Shown one piece after another: positions 2 to 13,960 of a stretch of 13,960 nt of DNA. Numbering within the stretch: position 1 is the first letter of the stretch; every line of letters starts with the position of its first letter. The notes beneath the pieces are model-generated. The model had not been told where the DNA came from, ran no database searches, and worked only from the letters and a program-made list of their open reading frames with translations. The translations under genes were made by a program, and so were the position numbers. Location: positions 1 through 13,960 of the forward strand of contig NZ_JAEDAM010000022.1 in the NCBI RefSeq assembly GCF_018420025.1. Reading direction: 5' to 3'. This DNA is from Candidatus Vampirococcus lugosii (lineage in GTDB: Bacteria > Patescibacteriota > Gracilibacteria > Absconditabacterales > Absconditicoccaceae).

Positions 2-1990
2 AGAGAGGTAAATATTGAATTATCAAAAATAATAAAATCACATAGAATAAGTTCAATAACTCAAACTTGAGCTAATTTGATATATTCTTTTAGATCAGAT
101 GTTAATACAGGAAGTTTTGATTTATTTGCTGATTCATATTTTGAAAATTTAACTTGAAATATTCAAAATTTTGATATAAATAATTGAACTTGAAGTGCTA
201 ATATTACTGGTTTGCTTGGTAAGACAAGATATTATTATAAATTAGTATTAGATGATGATTATTTGACAGGAACTTTTAGAACTGCTAATCTTGTTTCTCC
301 TGGTGATACAGAATCGACTTGAGTTACTTTATTGACTTGATCTAAAGTTGGAAGTGGTTCAAAACTAAAATTATCTAATAATATTGTAATTAAATCTGAT
401 TTAGATGATTCTAATGTTTTTTCTTGAAGTTTATCTTTATCTTGAGATATTGAAGTTGAATGATGAGATTGGGATTGATCTATAATACCTCCTAGTAAGA
501 TAGATGAAAGTGAAATTGATTGAGCTTGATTAACTTGAAATAATGTATTTATGAAATTATGAGCTGAAAATTGAATTACTCTTAAATCTGATGAAAATAA
601 TCCTTTTAAAGTGTCTGTTGAATTAGAAGATTGAGAAGTATGAAAAGAATATGATATATATAGATCAAAAGATTGAATGGGATGGTGAGAACTTATTGCT
701 TCTTGTGTATTAAATAATAACAAAGTATGTAATTTTGAAACAGAAACCTTTTCATATTTTGTATTTAATTCTCAAGAAGATGAAGAAGTAGATTTAGAAA
801 AATATGAAGTAGAATTTAATCTAGATCCTACAGATTTAGATTTAGAAGTTAAAAATTTAAGTTGAGATATACAAGTTGGAAGTTGAAATATTTATAATTT
901 AGAAAATTGAAGTTATACATATATAGCAAGTGCAATATGATATGAAAGTGAAGAATGATGATTTGTTATAAATGGAACATGAAAAATTATTAATATTGAG
1001 TTAGATATTACTATTCGTAGATGATGATGAGGTTGAACAAATATATATTGGAAACCTTATGAAAATGATGAATCTGAAGAAGATGATAACGAAGATAATT
1101 CTGAAGAAGATGATAACGAAGATGAATCTGAAGAAAATGATAACGAAGATGATTCTGAAGAAAATGATGAATTTGAAGAATCTAAAGATGATGAAAACAT
1201 TATTGAAGATGAAAATATTGTTGAAGATGAAAACAATATTTATAATGATATAGAATATACTATTGAAAGTATAATAATACATAATTCAAAAACATTAATA
1301 AATATACCAGTTTTTGATTCTGTTGATGTTCAAAATAGAGTTAATTTATTAAATAAATTAATTGTAAATCAAATAAAAGATAAAAGAATATCAGGTCGTG
1401 ATTTATCCAAGTTTATAAATTCTTATAATGATTTATTAATAATAATTAAAATTATTAATGATTTATCTGAGCATGTTAATGATACTAAAAAGCTTAAAGA
1501 TATTTGAAGAATAAAAATTGAAGATATATTATCAATTTTAAATGATTATGATAAAATTATTTCTTCAGATAATTTGGTAGATGATGAATTTGAATTAGCT
1601 TTATCTTTTATGAATAGATATGGTTTGACAAATTATACTAGTGTTGATGATTTTAGACCAGATGATGAATTAACATTACAAGAATTTATTAAATTCTTTG
1701 TATTATTTGGAACTAATGTGGTGTGATTGGAACAAGTATGACTTGATATGGAAAATGCTAATTCTTCAAAATTAGTTAATAGATCAGATGTATTTGTTGT
1801 TTTAGTTAAAGTTATTTTGTGAAGAAAATTGGATGAATCAGTTTATCCAAATTGGTATAATTATTTTGAGTTTGTTAGATATCTATGACTTACTAAAGAA
1901 GAAGATGTTTGGGCTCAAGATAGACCTATTACAAGATATGAATTAGCATTAATTCTTTATAGATCTTGGTTGTCAAATTGATTATTTTAA
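2..1990 (+). CDS. C-terminal ~662 aa of a large secreted/cell-surface protein (5' end lies outside the window). It is Gly/Asp/Glu-rich, has an acidic tandem-repeat linker, and ends in two SLH-like (S-layer-homology-like) repeats.
   Basis: The frame starting at position 2 stays open to TAA 1988-1990 only if TGA is sense; there are dozens of in-frame TGA and no TAA/TAG. The tail segments 'ALSFMNRYGLTNYTSVDDFRPDDELTLQEFIKFF' and 'DRPITRYELALILYRSW' resemble SLH repeats. The opposite-strand track ORFs 259..723 and 1001..1282 are antisense artefacts. Confidence 0.7.
1067..1174 (+). repeat. In-frame 27-bp tandem repeat, about 4 units, encoding an acidic D/E/N/S block (DESEEDDNE-like). Degenerate 18-bp EDEN-type repeats continue to about 1240.
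   Basis: Read directly: gatgaatctgaagaagatgataacgaa (1067-1093), gataattctgaagaagatgataacgaa (1094-1120), gatgaatctgaagaaaatgataacgaa (1121-1147), gatgattctgaagaaaatgatgaattt (1148-1174). Confidence 0.9.
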
Positions 1991-3656: not shown

Positions 3657-3680
3657 ATCTATATAGATAAACTAGATTTT

Positions 3681-4937
3681 ATGAAAATAACACATTGGAA
3701 GTTCTTTAAGTATTTTTATTCATGAATACTTGTTCTTTGGATATTAATAACTGTGCATGTTGTATATGCATTTGTTTATGATATTTCTGAACAAGTGCCT
3801 GTTAAATGATGAACATTTGTACATTGAGTATTTTCTCAAGCTACATATTTGCCATATTTAAGTAATACTTGAGAAGATAAATTTTTTCAGTCTCTTTTGT
3901 TTAATTGATGTTTATCGCCATATGTTGATAATACAAATATAGAATTTGAAGAAGATTTATGTAATATTAAAACTTCAAATTTTAGAGTTTTTGAAATTAG
4001 TGTTAAAGAATGAAAAAAATGGAATGATTGAACTCCAATTACAAATGATGATATATTTTTTACTTATAATGAACTTATAAAAAATAATATACGAAATATA
4101 TCTAGTTTAAATAGTTTTTCAAATTTGGAAATACAAGATCAATGAGATTTTATAAAAATTATATTTCCAAATTGAAGTAAAGATAATGAAATATTTCTTT
4201 CTAATTTTATACTTCCAAGACATTTACTTAAATGAAAAGATGTAACTTATTATGTAGAGAATTATTCAAATAATCCGATTTGAAGTAATTGTGCAACATT
4301 TAGACAATCTACTAGTGATAAAGATAGTATTATTTTTGATATGAATAATTGTGATGAAAGTTTTGTTATGAATTATCAAGTAAAAAATTTTGATAGTTTT
4401 GAGGATTTTCAAAAGTACCAAAAAAATTCTGATTTGATAGATCTTTATATTTGAAATGATTTGTTAAACTGATTTAGAAATAATAAAGTAATACTTAATA
4501 ATTTTGTATCAATATTTTTTAATGTTGAAGCAGATAATGTATCATCTAATATTAGAAGAACTATTTCACAAATAATTTATAATAATATATATAAATGAGA
4601 TTATAAAAAATATTTTATTAAAGATAAGTTTTTGTTTGATACAGATATACAATGATGAGCACCGAGAACAGTTTTTGAAGAATTAGAAAAAGAAATAACA
4701 AGCCCAAAAGAAGTAGAAGTTGAATTAGAAAATATGCCAAATGAATTAAATTTGGAAAATCTTACTTGAACTTTTTATTTGGATAGTATAGATGATTTGT
4801 TTAATATATCTTTTGATTTATGACAAAATTTTGATTCAGTATCAGTCCAACATAATGATTGACAAGCTTATGTATTGCAATGATATGATCAGTCAAGTAT
4901 TGCAAGGTATAATATATCTGAAAGATTTCAAATATAA
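3681..4937 (+). CDS. ABC-transporter substrate-binding protein, family 5 (Opp/Dpp-like), N-terminal portion (418 aa) with an N-terminal TM/signal anchor.
   Basis: The segment 'KGGTFVHGVFSQATYLPYLSNTGEDKFFQSLLFNGCLSPY...FRVFEISVKEGKKWNDGTPITNDDIFFTYNELI' matches the N-terminal SBP_bac_5 pattern (GGT..., 'W.DG.p.T..Dv.fT'). There are about 21 in-frame TGA. The frame ends at TAA 4935-4937. Confidence 0.7.
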
Positions 4938-4960
4938 AAATTTGAAAAAATGATTATATA

Positions 4961-5623
4961 TTGAGATGAAAAATTAATTGAGAAGAAAAAGAATTGTATA
5001 ATATTTCCTTATACTATAAAGAAAAACCACTTGAACAAATACCTGCAACAAGTAATTCTTTAAATTATAATGTATTATATTTTAAAAATGAATTAAATGA
5101 ATATGTAGTTTCCAAAATGAAAGAAATATTTGAATCTGAATGAATATTAGAATTTTTTACATTCAAATGAATTGATTCATCTGAAGAATTTCAATGACAA
5201 GTACAATCTCAAAATTATGATATTGTAATAAGATGAATTAATATGTGATTAAAAAAAGATATATCAAATATATTTATGACAAGTGACCCTCAAATAAATC
5301 CATCATGATATATAAATAATGATATGGCTTCAAATATAAATCAATATTTTATAAATGATTGAAAAACAAAAAATGATTTATTAAGTTCTATTCATTCAAA
5401 ATATTCTAATGAAGTTCCTTTTATAATACTTGGTAAAGTTTATGGAAATTTGAATATTAAGAAGAGTTCATGAATTTCTTTTCCTGAAAGACTTTATGAT
5501 TATAGATTTATTATAGATTATATTGACAATATAATAGTTTCCAAAAGACCTAAAATTGATTGAAAAAAGATATTAGATAATAAAAAATTTATTAATTTTA
5601 TAAGAAAAAATATATCAGAATAA
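4961..5623 (+). CDS. C-terminal portion of the same family-5 substrate-binding protein, in the -1 frame relative to 3681..4937. This looks like a split gene or frameshift pseudogene.
   Basis: The frame is open from 4913 to TAA 5621-5623. It has no in-frame ATG before 5117, so TTG 4961 is the first canonical start. 'YDIVIRGINMGLKKDISNIFMTSDPQINPSGYINNDM' resembles the C-terminal lobe of SBP_bac_5. It overlaps the upstream frame by 25 nt (4913-4937). Confidence 0.55.
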
Positions 5624-7565: not shown

Positions 7566-7680
7566 TAAAGAGTATATTAAAGTATATTTTATTTAAAATA
7601 AATTTTGTTCTTGATTTTTATATGTTAATATATATATAAAATATATTTAACTCGTTTTTAATAAAAATTTTAATAAATAA

Positions 7681-9810
7681 ATGGAGATATATAAAATACA
7701 AAAAAGAAATTGAGAAATAGTTGATTTTGATAAAATTAAAATTAATCAAGCTATAATAAAAGCTATTAAATCAGTTTGATGAACTGATTTTTCAAAAGTA
7801 GATTTTTATACTCAAGAAGTAATTAATCTAATATTAGAAAATAATTTAGATGGTATTGTTGGTGTGGAGCAAATACAAGATTGTGTTGAAGAAATATTAA
7901 TTAAAAATTGACATAATGAAACAGCAAAAAGTTATATTTTGTATCGTAATCAAAGAAATGAAAGTAGAATTGATAAAAATGTAGTAGTACAAGTAGAAAA
8001 AACTATGAAAGAATATTTAGATAGATCTGACTGGAGAGTAAATGCAAATGCAAATTCTTGATATAGTTTATGATGATTAATATTAAATATTTCTGGTAAA
8101 GTTGTTGCAAATTATTGGCTTTCTCATATATATCCAAAATATATTTGAAACTTACATAGAAACGGTGATATACATATACATGATTTAGATATGTTTGGTT
8201 GATATTGTGCTTGATGGAGTTTAAGACAACTTTTGGAAGAAGGATTTAATTGACTTTCTGATAGAGTGCAATCCGAACCTCCGAAAAATTTGCAATCTAC
8301 AGTAAATCAAATGATAAATTTTTTGTGAACTTTACAAAATGAACGAGCTTGAGCACAAGCATTTTCAAGTTTTGATACTTATTTGGCTCCTTTTGTTCAT
8401 AAATATAAAGAAGAATTAAAAGAAAACTTGATTGAATTATGAGTTAAATTTGAAACAAAAGAAAAAGAAAAAAATTATTTATATAATATGACTTATAAAT
8501 ATGTTTATCAACAATTTCAAAATTTTATTTTTTGATTAAATGTTCCCTCTAGATGGTGAACACAAACACCGTTTACAAATATAACATTAGATTGGAAATG
8601 TCCTGATGATTTAAAAGATAAAGCTCTTTATTTATGATGAATACAAAATTGAGAATATAAGAAAAAATATTGAGAATTAGAAGAAGAAATGAGACTTATA
8701 AATAGGGCATTAATTGAAGTTTATACGAAATGAGATGCGAATTGAAATGTATTTACTTTCCCTATTCCTACATATAATTTGACTGAAGATTTTCCACGAA
8801 ATGATCCGTTAGTTGAAGATTTGTTTGAAATGACAGCTAAATATTGAATTCCATATTTCCAAAATTTTATTGGTTCTCAATACAAAATAATAAAAGATGA
8901 AAATTGAAAAAATAAAAAAGTAAAAAATGAGGATGCATATTCCCCATGAGCTGTAAGAAGTATGTGCTGTAGACTTCAATTAGATTTGAAACAATTAGAA
9001 AAAAGATGAAATTGACTTTTTGGTTCTGCTGAAATGACTTGAAGTATTTGAGTAATTACAATTAATATGGCTAGAATATGATATAATTATAAATGAGATA
9101 TTGATTGATTTAAGAATAGAATTAAATTTTTGATGGATTGAGCTAAATCATCATTAGAAATTAAAAGAAAAGAATTATCTAAATGGTTAGATAAATGATT
9201 ATATCCATATACAAAAAGATATTTACATTCTTTTAGAAATCATTTTTCTACGATATGAATTAATTGAATTAATGAAGCTATATTAAATTTTACAGATTGA
9301 AAAGAAGATATTACAAGCAATTTTTGAATAAAGTTCGCTGTTGAAATTATGGATTTTATGAGAGATATTTTGAAAGAATATCAAGAAGAGACTTGAAATT
9401 TATATAATTTAGAGGCGACACCTGCAGAATGAACTACATACAGATTTGCAAAAGAAGATAAAAAGCAAATATCAGATATTATTCAAGCTGGAACACAAGA
9501 TGCACCTTATTATACTAATTCAAGTCAAATACCTGTTGCTTATACAGATGACCCATTTGAAGCATTAGATTTACAAAATGAATTGCAATGTAAATATACT
9601 TGATGAACAGTATTGCATATGTATATGTGAGAAAGAATTTCAAGTGCTCAAGCTTGTAAAAGTTTTGTTAAAACAATAGTAAGTAATTATCAATTACCAT
9701 ATATAACAATTAGTCCAACTTTTTCAATATGTCCTATACATTGATACATTGCTGGAGAACACGAATACTGCCCAAAGTGTGATGAAGAAAAATGATATAA
9801 GAATGTATAA
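7681..9810 (+). CDS. nrdD: Anaerobic (class III) ribonucleoside-triphosphate reductase NrdD (709 aa). It has an ATP-cone N-terminus and appears truncated before the glycyl-radical motif.
   Basis: Motifs present: 'MEIYKIQKRNGEIVDFDKIKINQAI' (ATP-cone-like), 'GDIHIHDLDMFGGYCAGWSL', 'NERAGAQAFSSFDTYLAPFV', 'RSMCCRLQLD', 'GSIGVITINMARIG', 'NLEATPAEGTTYRFAKED', 'APYYTNSSQIP', 'GGTVLHMYMGE', and the Zn-ribbon 'SICPIHGYIAGEHEYCPKC'. There are about 45 in-frame TGA. The protein ends 'DEEKGYKNV' followed by TAA TAG (9808-9813). Confidence 0.9.
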
Positions 9811-9898
9811 TAGCAATTTTAAAATATTATTAAATAACTTTAAATAATGTTGACTTTTTTAAAAAAATCTTTAAAACAAAAATCCTACCTTCTAAAAA

Positions 9899-9904
9899 AA
9901 GGAG
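9899..9904 (+). promoter_or_regulatory. Canonical Shine-Dalgarno (AAGGAG) for the lipoprotein gene.
   Basis: aaggag lies 9 nt upstream of ATG 9914. I found no comparable SD in front of the TGA-rich genes in this window. Confidence 0.7.
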
Positions 9905-9913
9905 ACTATTAAT

Positions 9914-10354
9914 ATGAGAATTTTAACCGTATTTTTGTTTGTTTTTTTTCTTACGGCATGTCAAACTACATCCGTTAGAAATCAAACTTCTGGTGCATTA
10001 CTTGGTGGTGTGCTTGGTGGTATGCTTGGTGCACAAGCTAAAAGCTATCAAACTGCTGCTGTGATTGGTGGTACTTTAATAGGTGCTAGTGTCGGAAGTA
10101 ATATAGGTGCTAGGATGGATTCTGTTGACAAAATGATGACAAAAAAAGCATTGGAAGTCAATAGAACTGGACAAAGCACAGAATGGAAAAATCCTGACAC
10201 TAATAATCAATATAGAGTAACACCAACTCGCACTTTTTCTTCAAGTACTTCTGTTTGTAGAGAATATGCGACGGAAGTCTTTATTAGAGGAAGACAAGAA
10301 ATGCTTTACGGAAAAGCTTGTCGAGAACCTGATGGAACTTGGCAAGTACAATAA
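9914..10354 (+). CDS. Lipoprotein of the glycine-zipper / 17-kDa-surface-antigen type (146 aa).
   Basis: It is intact in both the standard code and code 25. The signal peptide carries a lipobox (MRILTVFLFVFFL-TAC). A Gly-zipper follows: 'GALLGGVLGGMLGA...IGGTLIGASVGSNIGA'. The C-terminus 'STEWKNPDTNNQYRVTPTRTF...CREYATEV...YGKACREPDGTWQV' resembles proteobacterial surface-antigen lipoproteins. All 15 Gly codons are GGN, and GC is visibly higher than in the flanks. Confidence 0.85.
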   Translation: MRILTVFLFVFFLTACQTTSVRNQTSGALLGGVLGGMLGAQAKSYQTAAVIGGTLIGASVGSNIGARMDSVDKMMTKKALEVNRTGQSTEWKNPDTNNQYRVTPTRTFSSSTSVCREYATEVFIRGRQEMLYGKACREPDGTWQVQ

Positions 10355-10376
10355 TAATTAAATATTTGATTTTTTT

Positions 10377-10412
10377 AGGAGTAGTATTTCTACTCCTTTT
10401 TTTGTTTTTTTA
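10377..10412 (+). terminator. Rho-independent terminator of the lipoprotein gene.
   Basis: The stem pairs aggagtag (10377-10384) with ctactcct (10390-10397) around the loop tattt. A T7-G-T8 run follows. It sits 23 nt after the stop. Confidence 0.85.
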
Positions 10413-10437
10413 ACAAATTGAGTGGATAAAGTTTAAA

Positions 10438-10462
10438 ACAAGGATTTGCGAGAAAATAAAAA
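10438..10462. repeat. Copy 1 of a perfect 25-bp direct repeat, acaaggatttgcgagaaaataaaaa.
   Basis: An identical 25-mer recurs at 13912-13936. The flanks diverge immediately, apart from a loosely similar 'ttta(a/g)a' just upstream. Confidence 0.9.
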
Positions 10463-10920
10463 AATCTAAATTGTAAGAAAAAGTATCGTTGTTAAAAATA
10501 TCAATAATAGAACTTTTCAATAACCTTATAAGGAGTTCTATTTTCTAGTTATTGTTATGTCAATTTACAAATTTTTTTCTAAAAAACAAACTCTTGTTTT
10601 TTTGCTCTTTTGATTATATTCTATATCGTAGGCATTATACATTGAATTATAGTTTGTTATTAAATAAATTACATTAATTTATAGAAATTATTTTTAATAA
10701 CCATATACAATACAATCTTACATATACTTCATTTGATGTATCATAAAATTTTTATTTACTTGAATTATAATAAACATTATATATGTAATATAAAAAGACT
10801 TTACAAAAGAATTTTCTTAAAAAAATAAGAAATAGTTTTTTTAGATTTTTAAATAAAGTTAAATTTTTATAAAAAATACCATATAATTTTTCATAGGTCT
10901 CTAAAGAAAAAAGAAATGGA

Positions 10921-12099
10921 CTAATTCTTATATTCAAGATTTATTAATTCCAGAAAACTAAAAATTACAGATAATTCTAATAAAAATTTTTCTAAACTAA
11001 CTTCAGGTTCTTCTTTCAAAGATATTTCAAGATTATCATTACTATTTTTTAAATAAAGATAAATTTCATCTCAAATAAAAGCAATGTTTACATTGCTTGT
11101 GCTAGTTTTTTGTTCTAATTCCAGTAATTGACTTTGCATTTTAGGAGTTAAAATACTTCAAACTTCAATTTCATCTTCACAAAATACATCATATGTCTTA
11201 TTAAATATTTTATCATTTAATTGTATTTTTTTTTCTTTAGGTAAATTTTTTCTTCTATAAAATAACTCATATAAAAAAATTCAGACTAAATATAAAATTA
11301 TTAAAATTAACATAAATCCTCAAAATCATATTTGTGATATAATTGGAAAAATTACACCCATAATTCATTGAAAAATTTTTATAATTAGAATTATTATAAA
11401 TAATACAATTGCAAATCAATTAAAATATAGTCTAGCTTTATTTGCAATAGCTTTAAAAGGAGATATAGATTTAAGAATCCTTACTCTCTTTTTTATTTTT
11501 CTTTCAATATTTTTTATTCTACTATACATCAAAATTCCATAATCTGTAATATATTCACTTCTTGTTTCTCTACCTTCGCTATCAGTTGACTCTGTAACTC
11601 TAGATAAACAAAAATCTACTCACATCACAGATAAATCATTTTTCTTATAAAAAAAAGAATCTTCACTTCTTCTTACTGTATTATAGCTTGGATCTAATAA
11701 ACCAGACTTGTTTGAATATTCATAAAAGCATATTTTAAATAAATCATCTTTTATAGAGTATTGAAATCAATAAAAAGCTTTTTCTAAAACTTTTCAGTAG
11801 ACCCCTTCTTTTATCTTTTTAGAAAAATTCTTTTTTATAGCTGACCCTATAATTAACCATATTATCAAAGAACAAAGTCATAAAAAGACAACTATATGAA
11901 TTATTTCAATTAGTTCTTGATCATAGTTTTTTAAAAATACTTGATAAAATAAAAAGATTAATAGAATTATAAAAATAACATTGTTTATCATTAAGTAATT
12001 ATTATACTTCTTTTGAAGATTTATTACTTCTCTGTAATCTTTAGATACTTTGAATTCATTTATAACTTTATTTATTTCTGATTGTGTAAAAATATTCAT
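10921..12099 (-). CDS. DUF3137-like membrane protein (392 aa) with N-terminal and central TM helices.
   Basis: On the minus strand the frame is open from ATG (12099) to TAG (10923-10921) with 11 in-frame TGA. Track ORF 11878..12099 is only its first 73 codons. 'SEDSFFYKKNDLSVMGVDFCLSRVTESTDSEGRETRSEYITDYGILMYS' and the C-terminal 'CEDEIEVGSILTPKMQSQLLELEQ...VNIAFIGDEIYLYL' resemble my recollection of DUF3137 proteins. Confidence 0.65.
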
Positions 12100-12146
12100 T
12101 GCAAGTATTAATTATAAAATATAATTATTGATATTTATTTTTTTCA

Positions 12147-12595
12147 CTAGCTTGTTTTTAACTTAAAATATTTCATATTTGGCATAAATTCTATTACATT
12201 TCTTAAGAATTTTTGTGCTGTAATTGCCTTTTTATCTTTATGTATTTCAATATAAATAATTCTGGCCTTTCTCTCAATAGTTACATATATTATATATTTT
12301 TTTTCAGTTTCTAGGTATTTTGATTTGATATAGATTCATCAATTCTTCAATACAATCATCTAATGGCATATAGACAATAAAGTTTTTTAAATCAATGTTT
12401 TCTATATAGGAATAGATTGGGGAGCTTGATTTTGAAGCAATGTTGCTTGAATTTGCTCGTCTACTAATAGTAGCTGTGCTTAGTATTTATACTTCATTAC
12501 ATATTTCTCTATATGTTTTTCCCTTTATTATGTCTTTCTATAATTTTACATCTCAAATGCCCTTGAGTATAATCTTTTTTTCTGTATATATTCAT
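12147..12595 (-). pseudogene. Degenerate, 3'-truncated DDE (rve-type) transposase remnant, IS481-like (IS30-like not excluded).
   Basis: Minus-strand fragments appear in three frames. They include 'MNIYRKKDYTQGHLRCKIIERHNKGK', 'GKTYREICNEV(stop)ILSTATISRR' (HTH-like), 'IENIDLKNF' (compare HIDIKKL), and 'YVTIERKARIIYIEIHKDKKAITAQKFLRNVIEFMP' (compare 'vaIDr.sR..y.E...dk.a.ta..FL'). There are internal TAA/TAG stops and frameshifts. The remnant ends before the DNG.EF part of the catalytic core. Confidence 0.55.
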
Positions 12596-12632
12596 TATTT
12601 AATTTGCTTATTTATTTAAAGATTACTATCTT

Positions 12633-12662
12633 TATACTGAATTTAATTATACTGAATTTAAT
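12633..12662. repeat. Perfect 15-bp tandem duplication (tatactgaatttaat x2) in the divergent intergenic region.
   Basis: Read directly: 12633-12647 equals 12648-12662. Confidence 0.9.
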
Positions 12663-12719
12663 TTTGTTTACAATGTTTTTAGACTAAACATTTACTTTTT
12701 AATTTTTAATATAAATAAT

Positions 12720-13025
12720 ATGGCAATAATATTAGCTTACATTTTAATGGTTTTAATTGGAGGAATTGTATTGTGGATTATTGCAAAACTATTTTCAGGC
12801 TATCCTCCAAATATTATTCAATGTTTTGTTGGTGCTGGTATAGCTGAGTTTGTTAGTTTATTTGACATACCATTTATTCCTTTTATAGTATTATTTATTG
12901 TTCTTATCAAAATTGGCAGATTTGAAGCTGTGCCAGCTTTTGTTGCAACAATGCTATTGAATAATGAAGTTGTTCTTATTTGGAATAGTTGTAGTAACAC
13001 TTACTGATATATTCGGCTAAGTTAA
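12720..13025 (+). CDS. Small hydrophobic membrane protein. It is 95 aa in the standard code and 101 aa if the TGA at 13005 is read as Gly.
   Basis: The sequence is MAIILAYILMVLIGGIVLWIIAKLF...IPFIPFIVLFIVLIKIG..., with 2-3 TM helices. It has no internal TGA and all 6 Gly are GGN. An alternative frame near 12975-13020 encodes another helix-like segment (LFLFGIVVVTLTDIFG), so a frameshift is possible. No family recognised. Confidence 0.45.
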
Positions 13026-13138
13026 AAATTACATCACATAACACGGTGTATATGGTTCGATTATTTTTGTTTAATTAGATTTCATAAGGACTGCAAAAAT
13101 CAACTCTACCAAATTTTGGATTTAACATTTATTAATTA

Positions 13139-13933
13139 ATAAAAATATTTATATTCAGTAAATATTACCCAAATTGTTATGTTGAAAGTGTTTTTTTACT
13201 AGATTATCAAAAAATTTACAATCAAGGTTTTCGTATGATAATCTTTGATATTGATAATACTTTAGCCCATCATGGAGAAAATCCAAGTGAAGAAATAGAA
13301 AACCTTTTTCAAGAAATATATAAAATCGGCTTAAAAACTCTACTTTTTTCTGATAACAGTACTGAAAGAATTAATCAATTTTGTAAAAATATTGATTCTT
13401 CATTTGTCGCTGAAGCAAATAAACCTAATATATATAAATTAATTAATGCACTTGAAAATTTTAAATTACTCAAAGAGCAAAGTATTTATATTAGTGATCA
13501 AATATTTAGAGATATTTGTATGACGAATCAAGCATGAATTAAAAGTATCTTGGTTAAATATTTACGCAAACCAAATCAAAAAAAAAGGTATTCATCGTCG
13601 TTTGGAAAATTTTATTTTATGGTTTTATTCAAAAAGTAAGAAGTACCAAAGCTTGAAAAAGATTTTGAAAGATGATCAAAATAATATTAGAAAAAGAAAA
13701 CTTTTTTGTGAAATTCATCCTATTTTTTAAAAATTTCTGTAATAAAAGAACAATTGAAATATAATTTAAAAGATCTTTATAAAAGAAATAAATTTGCAAA
13801 AAATATATCCAATGTAAAACTTGATAATTTGATTTCACAATACTCTATAAAAATAATCAAGAAAGACAAAGCTCATCTTTGTAGAACAAAATTTCTAAAT
13901 CCTTGATTTAGACAAGGATTTGCGAGAAAATAA
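13139..13933 (+). pseudogene. YqeG-type HAD-IIIA phosphatase fused or adjacent to the N-terminus of a VanW-like protein. It is frameshifted and truncated.
   Basis: Frame A reads 'YYPNCYVESVFLLDYQKIYNQGFRMIIFDIDNTLAHHGENPSEE...FSDNSTERINQF...ANKPN...ISDQIFRDICMTNQAGIKSILVK', the YqeG pattern, and it has no ATG at the true N-terminus. A +1 shift at the A9 run (13578-13586) gives 'GIHRRLENFILWFY...RKRKLFCEIHPIF'. A second shift at the T6 run (13723-13728) gives 'YFLKISVIKEQLKYNLKDLYKRNKFAKNISNVKLDNLISQYS', resembling the clostridial VanW-family N-terminus. Homology ends near 13900. Confidence 0.6.
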
Positions 13934-13936
13934 AAA
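13912..13936. repeat. Copy 2 of the perfect 25-bp direct repeat. Its first 9 nt form the 3' arm of a local hairpin.
   Basis: acaaggatttgcgagaaaataaaaa is identical to 10438-10462. aaatccttg (13897-13905) is the exact reverse complement of caaggattt (13913-13921), with a 7-nt loop between them. Confidence 0.9.
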
Positions 13937-13937
13937 T

Positions 13938-13960
13938 AGATTTGTGTACTACACAAATTT
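13938..13960. repeat. Near-perfect palindrome at the window edge.
   Basis: atttgtgta (13940-13948), c, tacacaaat (13950-13958) are exact reverse complements. The pairing extends by a G:T and an A:T pair to 13938/13960. Confidence 0.75.

What the first reader, a model, noticed from the sequence alone, without database searches (positions are those of the whole stretch)
9790..13960. Mosaic accessory island of decayed, standard-code-like genes abuts the broken nrdD
Downstream of the nrdD break, gene order, strand and codon style all change. The region holds the foreign lipoprotein, about 500 bp of non-coding DNA, a native-style DUF3137-like gene (11 TGA versus about 7 GGN Gly codons), an IS481-like transposase remnant, a TGA-free membrane ORF, and a Firmicutes-like HAD/VanW remnant. 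This is the signature of a recombination or insertion hotspot. It doubles as a natural experiment on the fate of genes imported across a genetic-code boundary: intact when TGA-free and TAA-terminated, otherwise decaying. If anything undescribed is encoded here, the intact genes are the candidates (lipoprotein, DUF3137-like protein, small TM protein). I cannot show that they act together.
Basis: inference. Interest (0 to 1): 0.7.

Follow-up and report, generated by a model that had tools for sequence, protein, structure and literature searches.

The report
Foreign-gene patch replacing RNR operon end
In the published genome of the predatory bacterium Vampirococcus lugosii, the far end of its anaerobic ribonucleotide reductase operon has been replaced by a patch of imported genes, one intact and most damaged; this is a real but fairly ordinary scar of gene transfer.

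Summary
The window is the whole 13,960-bp contig VAMP_40 of the published Ca. Vampirococcus lugosii genome (Absconditabacteria, TGA=Gly).

**Observation largely holds.**
- nrdD (7681-9810) stops matching 80 relatives at about 9800, roughly 25 codons before their stop.
- The partners that relatives keep downstream are absent: a separate ~65-aa glycyl-radical ORF (79/80) and nrdG (74/80).
- In their place are:
  - an intact proteobacterial-type 17-kDa-antigen lipoprotein, with 0/15 Gly codons as TGA against 84% in native genes;
  - 566 bp of non-coding DNA;
  - an orphan DUF3137 gene;
  - a weak IS481-like fragment;
  - a ~100-aa membrane gene;
  - a YqeG-type HAD phosphatase.

**Corrections.**
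- The membrane ORF is not intact. A 2-nt deletion puts its third helix in another frame.
- The HAD gene is nearly full length, with one extra A in an A9 run.
- Both carry TGA at a conserved glycine, which indicates recoding after import.
- The 'VanW remnant' has no support.

**Status.** The nrdD-lipoprotein junction appears in two separate sequencing runs, so it is not a chimera. Moreira et al. 2021 already list the lipoprotein and the HAD gene as transfers. 'Hotspot' is untested.

**By-product.** This class III RNR clade encodes its glycyl-radical domain on a separate ORF in 79/79 relatives. My literature searches found no description of this.

The parts
7681..9810 (+). nrdD large ORF (709 aa: ATP-cone plus class III RNR barrel plus C-x2-H...C-x2-C zinc site). 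It is cut about 25 codons short of the conserved tail seen in relatives.
   Evidence: Pfam NRDD E=3.6e-168, profile positions 2-531/562; ATP-cone E=2e-20. PDB alignments end at the CPKC motif with about 39 residues of target left. Tail comparison with 80 relatives. 211/212 invariant columns kept.
9799..9810 (+). Breakpoint. The last codon shared with relatives is K (9799-9801), followed by N-V-stop, which has no counterpart in relatives.
   Evidence: tblastn with relatives' tails stops at 9799.
9811..9913 (+). AT-rich leader of the lipoprotein gene (GC 16.5%) with an AGGAG ribosome-binding site. Three of the five differences between the two runs cluster at 9814-9840.
9914..10354 (+). Intact imported lipoprotein of the 17-kDa surface antigen / RT0821-Lpp0805 type: signal peptide, lipobox LTAC, glycine zipper and a C-terminal helix-plus-sheet domain.
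   Evidence: Pfam 17kDa_Anti_2 35.7 bits, above the 26.6 cutoff. 0/15 Gly codons are TGA; GC 37.6%. Best non-self homologs are at most 51% identical, on 58-62% GC contigs with LpxC, a lipid A acyltransferase or flagellar genes. All 18 family-invariant residues are kept. NCBI name.
10377..10407 (+). Terminator-like hairpin and T-run after the lipoprotein gene.
10438..10462 (+). Copy 1 of the exact 25-nt direct repeat ACAAGGATTTGCGAGAAAATAAAAA.
   Evidence: 0 of 200 shuffles give 2 matches. The Logan contigs end or begin around this repeat (L001 27 nt past it, L082 5 nt past it, L089 inside it).
10355..10920 (.). 566-bp non-coding stretch, GC 18%. No Rfam match and no remnant of the glycyl-radical ORF, nrdG, nrdR or nrdB.
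10921..12099 (-). Intact DUF3137-domain membrane protein (392 aa), an orphan apart from its Pfam domain. It has 11 TGA and 7 GGN Gly codons.
   Evidence: Pfam DUF3137 E=6.8e-18. The only hit in 5.8 billion proteins is itself. Codon counts.
12147..12590 (-). Fragmented IS481-like transposase remnant: helix-turn-helix-like piece and the front of the catalytic domain, in two frames with stops.
   Evidence: NCBIfam NF033577 E=2e-4, profile positions 135-185/284. Frames shown. No Pfam or plasmid support.
12720..13020 (+). Gene for a ~100-aa three-helix membrane protein, disrupted by a 2-nt deletion at 12955/6. The conserved Gly of the 'YG' motif is TGA at 12958-12960.
   Evidence: 9 homologs in 1.84 billion representatives, best 72-74% identity. 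Two-frame tblastn alignment. That Gly is GGA in the standard-code homolog L094.
13136..13730 (+). YqeG-type HAD-IIIA phosphatase gene with one extra A in the A9 run at 13578-13586. No canonical start codon precedes the internal ATG at 13235. TGA sits at the conserved Gly (13534-13536) of 'NQAGIKSILV'.
   Evidence: TIGR01668 rises from 74.7 to 78.5 bits and reaches profile position 163/170 after frame repair; TIGR01662 is above its cutoff. Frames. Sequence is identical in Logan contig L089.
13731..13911 (.).
   Evidence: No Pfam or NCBIfam hit at E<=1.
13912..13936 (+). Copy 2 of the 25-nt direct repeat. It lies inside a strongly folding stretch that runs to the contig end.
   Evidence: Fold z-score -4.9 for 13865-13960.

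Best explanation
**What it is.** The region 9800-13960 of Ca. Vampirococcus lugosii contig VAMP_40 is a scar of deletion and foreign-DNA acquisition.

**Ancestral state.** In the ancestral operon, nrdD-large was followed by a small glycyl-radical ORF and then nrdG (in the relatives inspected, then nrdR and an RNR small-subunit gene). This order is inferred from 74-79 of 80 relatives. Everything from the last ~25 codons of nrdD onward was lost here.

**What replaced it.**
- A cassette carrying a proteobacterial-type outer-membrane lipoprotein gene with its own ribosome-binding site and terminator.
- A 3.45-kb block bracketed by an exact 25-nt direct repeat. It holds an orphan DUF3137 gene, an IS481-like fragment, a small three-helix membrane gene and a YqeG-type HAD phosphatase gene.

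**Shown.**
- The breakpoint, and the absence of the operon partners from the contig.
- The foreign codon style of these genes.
- The standard-code or diderm affinities of the closest homologs of the lipoprotein and the membrane gene.
- The two frameshifts.
- TGA at conserved glycine positions in the two frameshifted genes. One of these is GGA in the closest standard-code homolog.

**Inferred.**
- The DNA entered through the competence machinery that the genome paper describes for this host-DNA-scavenging predator.
- It integrated by illegitimate or IS-assisted recombination.
- Imports were then ameliorated toward AT and toward TGA=Gly.
- Most imports are now decaying through ordinary indels. 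The lipoprotein is kept by selection.
- The nrdD truncation is either very recent, or the large subunit still works with partners encoded elsewhere.
For: - Identity of the contig and organism. Gene IDs in the paper scale with window coordinates.
- Code 25.
- Breakpoint and missing partners.
- Junction seen in two runs (the paper describes three independently amplified consortia).
- Codon statistics.
- Lipoprotein homolog contexts (LpxC, lipid A acyltransferase, flagella; 58-62% GC).
- All 18 invariant family residues retained in the lipoprotein.
- Membrane-gene frameshift and the GGA-to-TGA change.
- HAD frameshift in the A9 run and TGA at a conserved Gly.
- 25-nt direct repeat. Block recovered as its own Logan contig.
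- Published HGT list.
- Competence genes and host-DNA uptake.
Against: - No close relative is available, so the empty or ancestral state of this exact locus is not observed. Flanks share no synteny with any of the 80 relatives.
- The DUF3137 gene is 61% TGA at Gly codons and has no homologs, so it may be native.
- NrdD-large shows no relaxed constraint. That fits poorly with a long-dead enzyme.
- No integrase is present and there is only a weak transposase signal, so the integration mechanism is unknown.
- A third sequence context follows the 25-nt repeat in one library and is unexplained.
- The lipoprotein is only about 50% identical to its nearest homologs and has GC3 of 18%. The transfer is therefore old, or the donor is unsampled.
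Confidence: 0.7

Rival explanations
1. A discrete integrative element. The 3.45-kb block (10463-13911) would be a decayed mobile island that inserted by site-specific recombination, with the 25-nt direct repeats as attL and attR cores. The lipoprotein cassette would be a separate, earlier event.
For: An exact 25-nt direct repeat brackets the block. Assembly graphs break at both copies, and the block is its own contig in two runs. A transposase-like fragment lies inside.
Against: There is no integrase or recombinase. The alternative junction in L001 matches neither an attB nor an attP product. The repeat was not found anywhere else in the metagenome or viral collections.
Confidence: 0.2
2. A lineage-specific native region, not an island. 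V. lugosii would simply have rearranged its RNR genes, with the glycyl-radical ORF and nrdG moved elsewhere. DUF3137, the membrane gene and the HAD gene would be old residents with noisy codon usage.
For: NrdD-large is as conserved as in relatives. nrdG is not adjacent to nrdD in some lineages (L095; 6 of 80 loci). DUF3137 uses TGA for 11 of 18 Gly codons. The HAD and membrane genes use TGA at a conserved Gly.
Against: Lipoprotein Gly-codon usage gives P=1e-12 against native usage, and its homologs sit in diderm contexts. The membrane gene is 74% identical to a standard-code bacterium's protein. Published phylogenies call the lipoprotein and the HAD gene HGT. nrdD has lost its own conserved tail, not just its neighbours. 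No V. lugosii-labelled NrdG appears among the best 120 homologs.
Confidence: 0.15
3. An assembly or whole-genome-amplification chimera that joins unrelated fragments.
For: The genome comes from MDA and MALBAC products. Short-read graphs branch at the 25-nt repeat, and one library shows an alternative continuation.
Against: The nrdD-lipoprotein junction is identical in assemblies of two separate runs that differ by 5 SNPs. L082 and L089 overlap by 25 nt, including bases unique to copy 1. Genes on both sides of each junction use TGA as Gly.
Confidence: 0.05

Closest known systems
HGT-derived accessory regions in CPR genomes, specifically the 126 HGT genes reported for V. lugosii (Moreira et al. 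2021, PMC8080830)
   Same: Same genome. The lipoprotein (VAMP_40_134 'surface antigen') and the HAD gene (VAMP_40_177) are already on the published HGT list. The paper also discusses UGA=Gly as a barrier to expressing foreign DNA.
   Different: My term searches of the paper ('ribonucleo', 'pseudogene', 'transposase', 'repeats') found no mention of the nrdD truncation, the loss of the glycyl-radical ORF and nrdG, the frameshifts, the membrane gene or the 25-nt repeats.
Rickettsia 17-kDa antigen / RT0821-Lpp0805 family glycine-zipper lipoproteins of Pseudomonadota
   Same: Lipobox, glycine zipper, a 17kDa_Anti_2 domain above the Pfam threshold, and all 18 invariant residues.
   Different: It is encoded in a CPR bacterium with TGA=Gly. 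Identity to any homolog is at most 51%. Composition is heavily AT-ameliorated but with no TGA codons. The function of the family is unknown, and the fold search found no solved relative.
GrcA/YfiD 'spare part' glycyl-radical protein of pyruvate formate-lyase
   Same: Relatives of the window's NrdD carry the glycyl-radical loop on a free-standing ~65-aa protein, separate from the catalytic barrel.
   Different: GrcA replaces a damaged domain of a full-length enzyme. Here the barrel ORF never contains the domain. No biochemical evidence exists. The window itself lacks the small ORF.
Split nrdD genes of phages (introns, homing endonucleases; PMC3653736)
   Same: nrdD is encoded in more than one piece.
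   Different: Phage splits are sporadic and caused by mobile elements. This split sits at a fixed position, lacks an intervening element (median gap 46 nt) and is conserved across lineages using both genetic codes.
Poly(A)-tract frameshifts in reduced AT-rich genomes, partly rescued by transcriptional slippage (Tamas et al. 2008, recalled from memory)
   Same: The HAD gene is disrupted by a single extra A in an A9 run.
   Different: No expression data exist. Rescue is only a possibility.

Membership tests
Horizontally acquired genomic island | Composition or codon usage atypical for the host genome | tested here: met
   TGA share of Gly codons: 0/15, 1/8, 1/6 and 11/18, against 158/188 in native genes. 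Lipoprotein GC is 37.6% against 19-25%.
Horizontally acquired genomic island | Absent from related genomes at the same locus | tested here: inconclusive
   None of 80 relatives has any of these genes near nrdD, and 74-79 have the glycyl-radical ORF and nrdG instead. However, the relatives are at most 74% identical in NrdD and share no flank synteny.
Horizontally acquired genomic island | Mobility genes (integrase or transposase) and flanking direct repeats | tested here: inconclusive
   Only a weak IS481-like fragment (E=2e-4). The 25-nt direct repeat brackets 10463-13911. No integrase.
Horizontally acquired genomic island | Insertion next to a tRNA or tmRNA gene | tested here: not met
   ARAGORN finds no tRNA or tmRNA gene in the window.
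17-kDa surface antigen / RT0821-Lpp0805 lipoprotein | Signal peptide with lipobox cysteine | tested here: met
   MRILTVFLFVFFLTAC. C16 is invariant in the 32-sequence alignment.
17-kDa surface antigen / RT0821-Lpp0805 lipoprotein | 17kDa_Anti_2 domain above the Pfam gathering score | tested here: met
   35.7 bits against 26.6. The glycine-zipper models are sub-threshold (20.6 against 24.2).
Class III ribonucleotide reductase (NrdD/NrdG) | NRDD catalytic barrel with the Cys-Cys loop | tested here: met
   Pfam NRDD 561 bits; 'SMCCRL' present.
Class III ribonucleotide reductase (NrdD/NrdG) | Glycyl-radical loop (RVxGY), in the same chain or on a partner ORF | tested here: not met
   No TRVMGY-type motif in any of the six frames of the window. 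No tblastn remnant.
Class III ribonucleotide reductase (NrdD/NrdG) | Radical-SAM activase NrdG | tested here: not met
   Absent from the window. No V. lugosii-labelled protein among the best 120 NrdG homologs. The whole genome could not be searched.
DUF3137 | Pfam PF11335 above the gathering score | tested here: met
   65.3 bits against 26.1, residues 283-387.
IS481 family transposase | NCBIfam NF033577 at the curated cutoff, with a complete DDE domain | tested here: not met
   20.9 bits against 224. Only profile positions 135-185 of 284 are matched. The region is split over two frames with stops.
YqeG-type HAD-IIIA phosphatase | HAD-IIIA subfamily model and the DxDxT motif | tested here: met
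   TIGR01662 at 44.9 bits against 44.6. 'FDIDNTL' is present. The YqeG model TIGR01668 reaches 78.5 bits, below its cutoff of 89.1.
YqeG-type HAD-IIIA phosphatase | Uninterrupted reading frame | tested here: not met
   The frame changes inside the A9 run at 13578-13586. There is no ATG, GTG or TTG at the family's N-terminus.
VanW | Any profile match to VanW | tested here: not met
   No Pfam or NCBIfam hit at E<=1 for the frames of 13640-13960.

The most novel reading that the evidence does not exclude
The 'broken' nrdD may point to something larger. This clade of bacteria, labelled mostly CPR (Gracili-, Abscondita-, Peregrini-, Magasanik-, Uhr-, Nomura-, Moranbacteria), encodes class III ribonucleotide reductase as two polypeptides. 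One is a catalytic barrel that ends just after the zinc site. The other is a free-standing ~65-aa protein that carries the glycyl radical. This is a GrcA-like arrangement that I could not find described for any RNR. V. lugosii would then be a natural case in which the large subunit stays fully conserved after the adjacent small subunit and activase were replaced by foreign DNA. Either the partners act in trans from elsewhere in the genome, or the loss is extremely recent.
Probability: 0.35. Interest if true: 0.7.

Novelty: new member of a known kind. Interest (0 to 1): 0.35.

Why it matters
- The region is a small, well-documented example of what happens to genes that cross from the standard code into a TGA=Gly genome.
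  - One import is kept intact with no TGA at all.
  - Two others acquired TGA at conserved glycines. One of these is GGA in the closest standard-code homolog.
  - Those two genes were then disabled by ordinary indels, not by the code difference.
- The region also shows that an obligate predator that scavenges host DNA has lost, at this locus, the parts of anaerobic RNR needed to generate the radical.
- The wider value lies in the comparative by-product: a conserved two-ORF class III RNR in this mostly CPR-labelled clade. If it is confirmed and truly undescribed, it bears on how glycyl-radical enzymes are assembled and repaired.
- As an 'island' in its own right, the region is ordinary and partly published.

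Tried and rejected
- **Rfam:** scan of 9700-13960 at E<=1 found nothing.
- **Lipoprotein structure:** AlphaFold model (pLDDT about 90 for residues 70-146) and Foldseek against PDB gave no match better than E=0.16, so no functional lead.
- **Repeat searches:** exact-pattern scans of the metagenome and viral collections for the 25-nt repeat core and for the adjacent hairpin gave 0 hits.
- **Cas12a idea:** the hairpin AATTTCTAAATCCTTGATTTAGA next to repeat copy 2 might be a Cas12a-type CRISPR repeat. I rejected this for lack of a second copy, lack of an Rfam CRISPR-DR hit, and because the conserved part is the 'spacer-like' 25-mer.
- **dif/IMEX idea for the repeats:** the 25-mer has no palindromic arms, and the skew switch simply follows the coding strand.
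- **Short repeats flanking the lipoprotein cassette:** the 10-11-nt direct repeats (9860-9879 against 10432-10467) are at the number expected by chance in this AT-rich DNA (plus my estimate).
- **IS fragment:** tblastn against plasmids found nothing. Pfam on the stitched fragment gave no rve domain.
- **V. lugosii nrdG:** I searched for it through the best 120 homologs and 4 contig look-ups. None came from the V. lugosii runs.
- **Synteny:** tblastn of all window proteins against 80 relatives' loci showed that only nrdD is shared, plus prfA in 2 loci.

Full report
**Identity of the window.** With TGA as a stop codon the window has almost no long ORFs. With TGA read through, ORFs of at least 100 aa sum to 14.4 kb over both strands. 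TGA falls at glycines, including the GGQ motif of RF1 and an RGGGGG run, so the code is table 25. The DUF3137 protein is 100% identical to MBS8121912.1 of Candidatus Vampirococcus lugosii, on a contig of exactly 13,960 bp. The window is therefore a complete contig of the genome published by Moreira et al. 2021 (PMC8080830). The paper's gene IDs scale with window coordinate divided by 74: Vamp_40_40 is the oligopeptide ABC transporter, VAMP_40_134 the 'surface antigen', VAMP_40_177 the 'HAD phosphatase IIIA'. This identifies the contig as VAMP_40.

**The nrdD break is real.** The ORF at 7681-9810 matches Pfam NRDD positions 2-531 of 562 and ends just after the zinc site, at '...CPKCDEEKGYKNV*'. 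Solved NrdD structures continue for about 39 more residues, which hold the glycyl radical. I fetched 80 relatives from species-representative genomes, 62-74% identical. In them the ORF continues past 'GY' with a conserved tail (LGY.G.KFD...R..YT) for 15-35 more codons. The window diverges after codon K at 9799-9801.

**What relatives have downstream.**
- None of the relatives carries the glycyl-radical loop in the nrdD ORF.
- In 79 of 79 informative loci the loop lies on a separate ORF. The motif is RT.CE[IV][YW]TRVMGY.RPV..FN.GKK.E.YSR.
- That ORF has a median length of 65 aa and a median gap of 46 nt from nrdD.
- It occurs in all three frames relative to nrdD, and in 40 TGA-sense and 40 standard-code genomes.
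- nrdG follows on the same strand within 5 kb in 74 of 80 loci, and within 1.5 kb in 66.
- nrdR and an RNR small-subunit gene come next in the loci I inspected.

**What the window lacks.** It has neither the small ORF nor nrdG, nor any remnant of either. Yet NrdD-large keeps 211 of the 212 columns that are invariant among the relatives, which is no worse than the relatives themselves. The truncation is therefore either very recent, or the large subunit still functions with partners encoded elsewhere. No V. lugosii-labelled NrdG appeared among the best 120 homologs, and four candidate contigs came from other samples. I could not search the whole genome.

**Not a misassembly.** The genome derives from three independently amplified consortia. 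Logan assemblies of two runs contain the nrdD-lipoprotein junction. L001 (SRR13241708) is 100% identical to window 8660-10461. L082 (SRR13241709) is 99.83% identical to 7578-10467, with 5 differences. The block 10443-13901 is a single Logan contig, recorded for two samples, and is identical to the window.

**The lipoprotein (9914-10354).**
- It is intact, with an AGGAG ribosome-binding site, a lipobox, a TAA stop and a terminator hairpin.
- It passes the Pfam threshold for 17kDa_Anti_2. NCBI names it an RT0821/Lpp0805 family surface protein.
- Native genes use TGA for 158 of 188 Gly codons. This gene uses it for 0 of 15 (P=1e-12). Its GC is 37.6% and its GC3 is 18%.
- The nearest non-self homologs are at most 51% identical. 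They lie on 58-62% GC contigs next to LpxC, a lipid A acyltransferase or flagellar genes. Named hits are Gamma- and Alphaproteobacteria and Rickettsiales.
- It retains all 18 residues that are invariant in a 32-sequence alignment, which argues for continued function.
- A good model of the C-terminal domain found no solved relative.

**The right-hand block.**
It has no homolog at E<=1e-3 other than itself. Its origin is undecided.
- *IS481-like remnant.* The call rests on a single sub-threshold NCBIfam match of about 50 residues, spread over two frames. Pfam and a plasmid search add nothing.
- *Membrane ORF.* It belongs to a real family of ~100-aa three-helix proteins but is not intact.
  - The best homolog (74% identical, from a standard-code contig of 25.7% GC) aligns residues 5-80 in one frame and 81-101 in another.
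  - The two alignments overlap by 2 nt at 12955/6, which implies a 2-nt deletion in a TATAT run.
  - The conserved Gly of the 'YG' motif is GGA in that homolog and TGA in the window.
- *HAD gene.* It matches the YqeG family over profile positions 4-163 of 170 once one A is removed from the A9 run at 13578-13586. Its only TGA falls on the conserved Gly before 'ILV'.
- *'VanW remnant'.* Nothing supports it.
- *Overall.* The damaged imports are broken by ordinary indels. Their TGA codons look like post-transfer recoding, not lethal stops.

**Boundaries and mechanism.** An exact 25-nt direct repeat (10438-10462 and 13912-13936) brackets the block. None of 200 shuffles gave two matches to its 23-nt core. 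The Logan contigs end or begin within about 30 nt of its copies. In one library the repeat is followed by a third, unplaced context. Copy 2 lies in a strongly folding stretch that reaches the contig end. There is no integrase and no tRNA gene. The right border of the region lies beyond the contig. The integration mechanism is therefore inferred, not shown.

**Comparison with what is known.** Foreign patches with IS debris next to truncated genes are commonplace. The paper already lists the lipoprotein and the HAD gene among 126 HGT genes, and it discusses UGA=Gly as a barrier to expressing foreign genes. This analysis adds the nrdD truncation and loss of its partners, the two frameshifts, the recoding evidence and the repeat structure. 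'Hotspot' remains untested, because no close relative exists in the collections searched.

**The more interesting by-product.** The two-ORF class III RNR is conserved across this mostly CPR-labelled clade. Full-text searches found phage nrdD genes split by mobile elements and the GrcA/YfiD spare part of PFL. They found no description of a free-standing glycyl-radical protein for an RNR.

**Verdict.** The feature is real, ordinary in kind and partly published. Interest is 0.35.

Noticed in passing
Loci L002-L081 (about 10 to 1300 nt downstream of each nrdD match; e.g. L030 5517-5780, L054 12209-12517): In 79/79 informative relatives, the glycyl-radical loop of class III RNR is on a separate ~65-aa ORF after an nrdD ORF that stops soon after a C-x2-H...C-x2-C zinc site. 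This holds in both TGA-sense and standard-code genomes (most with CPR labels) and in all three relative frames. My literature searches found no description of it.
   Followed up: partly
window 10438-10462 and 13912-13936; L001 1803-1829: An exact 25-nt direct repeat brackets a 3.45-kb block. In run SRR13241708 the repeat is also followed by a third context (ctcatctttgtaaataaaaaatagcaa). The first 12 nt of that context equal window 13872-13883, after which it diverges.
   Followed up: partly
window 13865-13960: The last 96 nt of the contig fold unusually well (z=-4.9). One hairpin, AAATCCTTG-7nt-CAAGGATTT, overlaps repeat copy 2, and a 10-bp hairpin sits at the very end. This may explain why the assembly stops here.
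   Followed up: partly
window 9814-9840: Three of the five differences between the two runs cluster in 27 nt just after the nrdD stop, at the junction. The other two are a synonymous change in nrdD and F9S in the lipoprotein signal peptide.
   Followed up: no
window 3657-4937 and 4913-5623: Two overlapping same-strand ORFs, of which the first has a weak SBP_bac_5 match. Together they are probably the paper's oligopeptide ABC component Vamp_40_40. This may be another frameshifted gene.
   Followed up: no
window 1040-1219: An imperfect 27-nt tandem repeat encodes an acidic D/E/N/S-rich stretch inside the large N-terminally cut surface-type protein (2-1990).
   Followed up: no
L095 1429-2136, L096: In some code-25 relatives nrdG is not next to nrdD; a tRNA methyltransferase gene lies upstream on the opposite strand. 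RNR partner genes can therefore be dispersed in this group.
   Followed up: no
L094 6001-6306: The closest homolog of the window's small membrane gene sits directly after a GldG-like ABC-2 transporter cluster (ABC_tran, ABC2_membrane, ABC_transp_aux, DUF4340) in a 25.7% GC standard-code genome. This hints at a functional link for this unnamed ~100-aa family.
   Followed up: no
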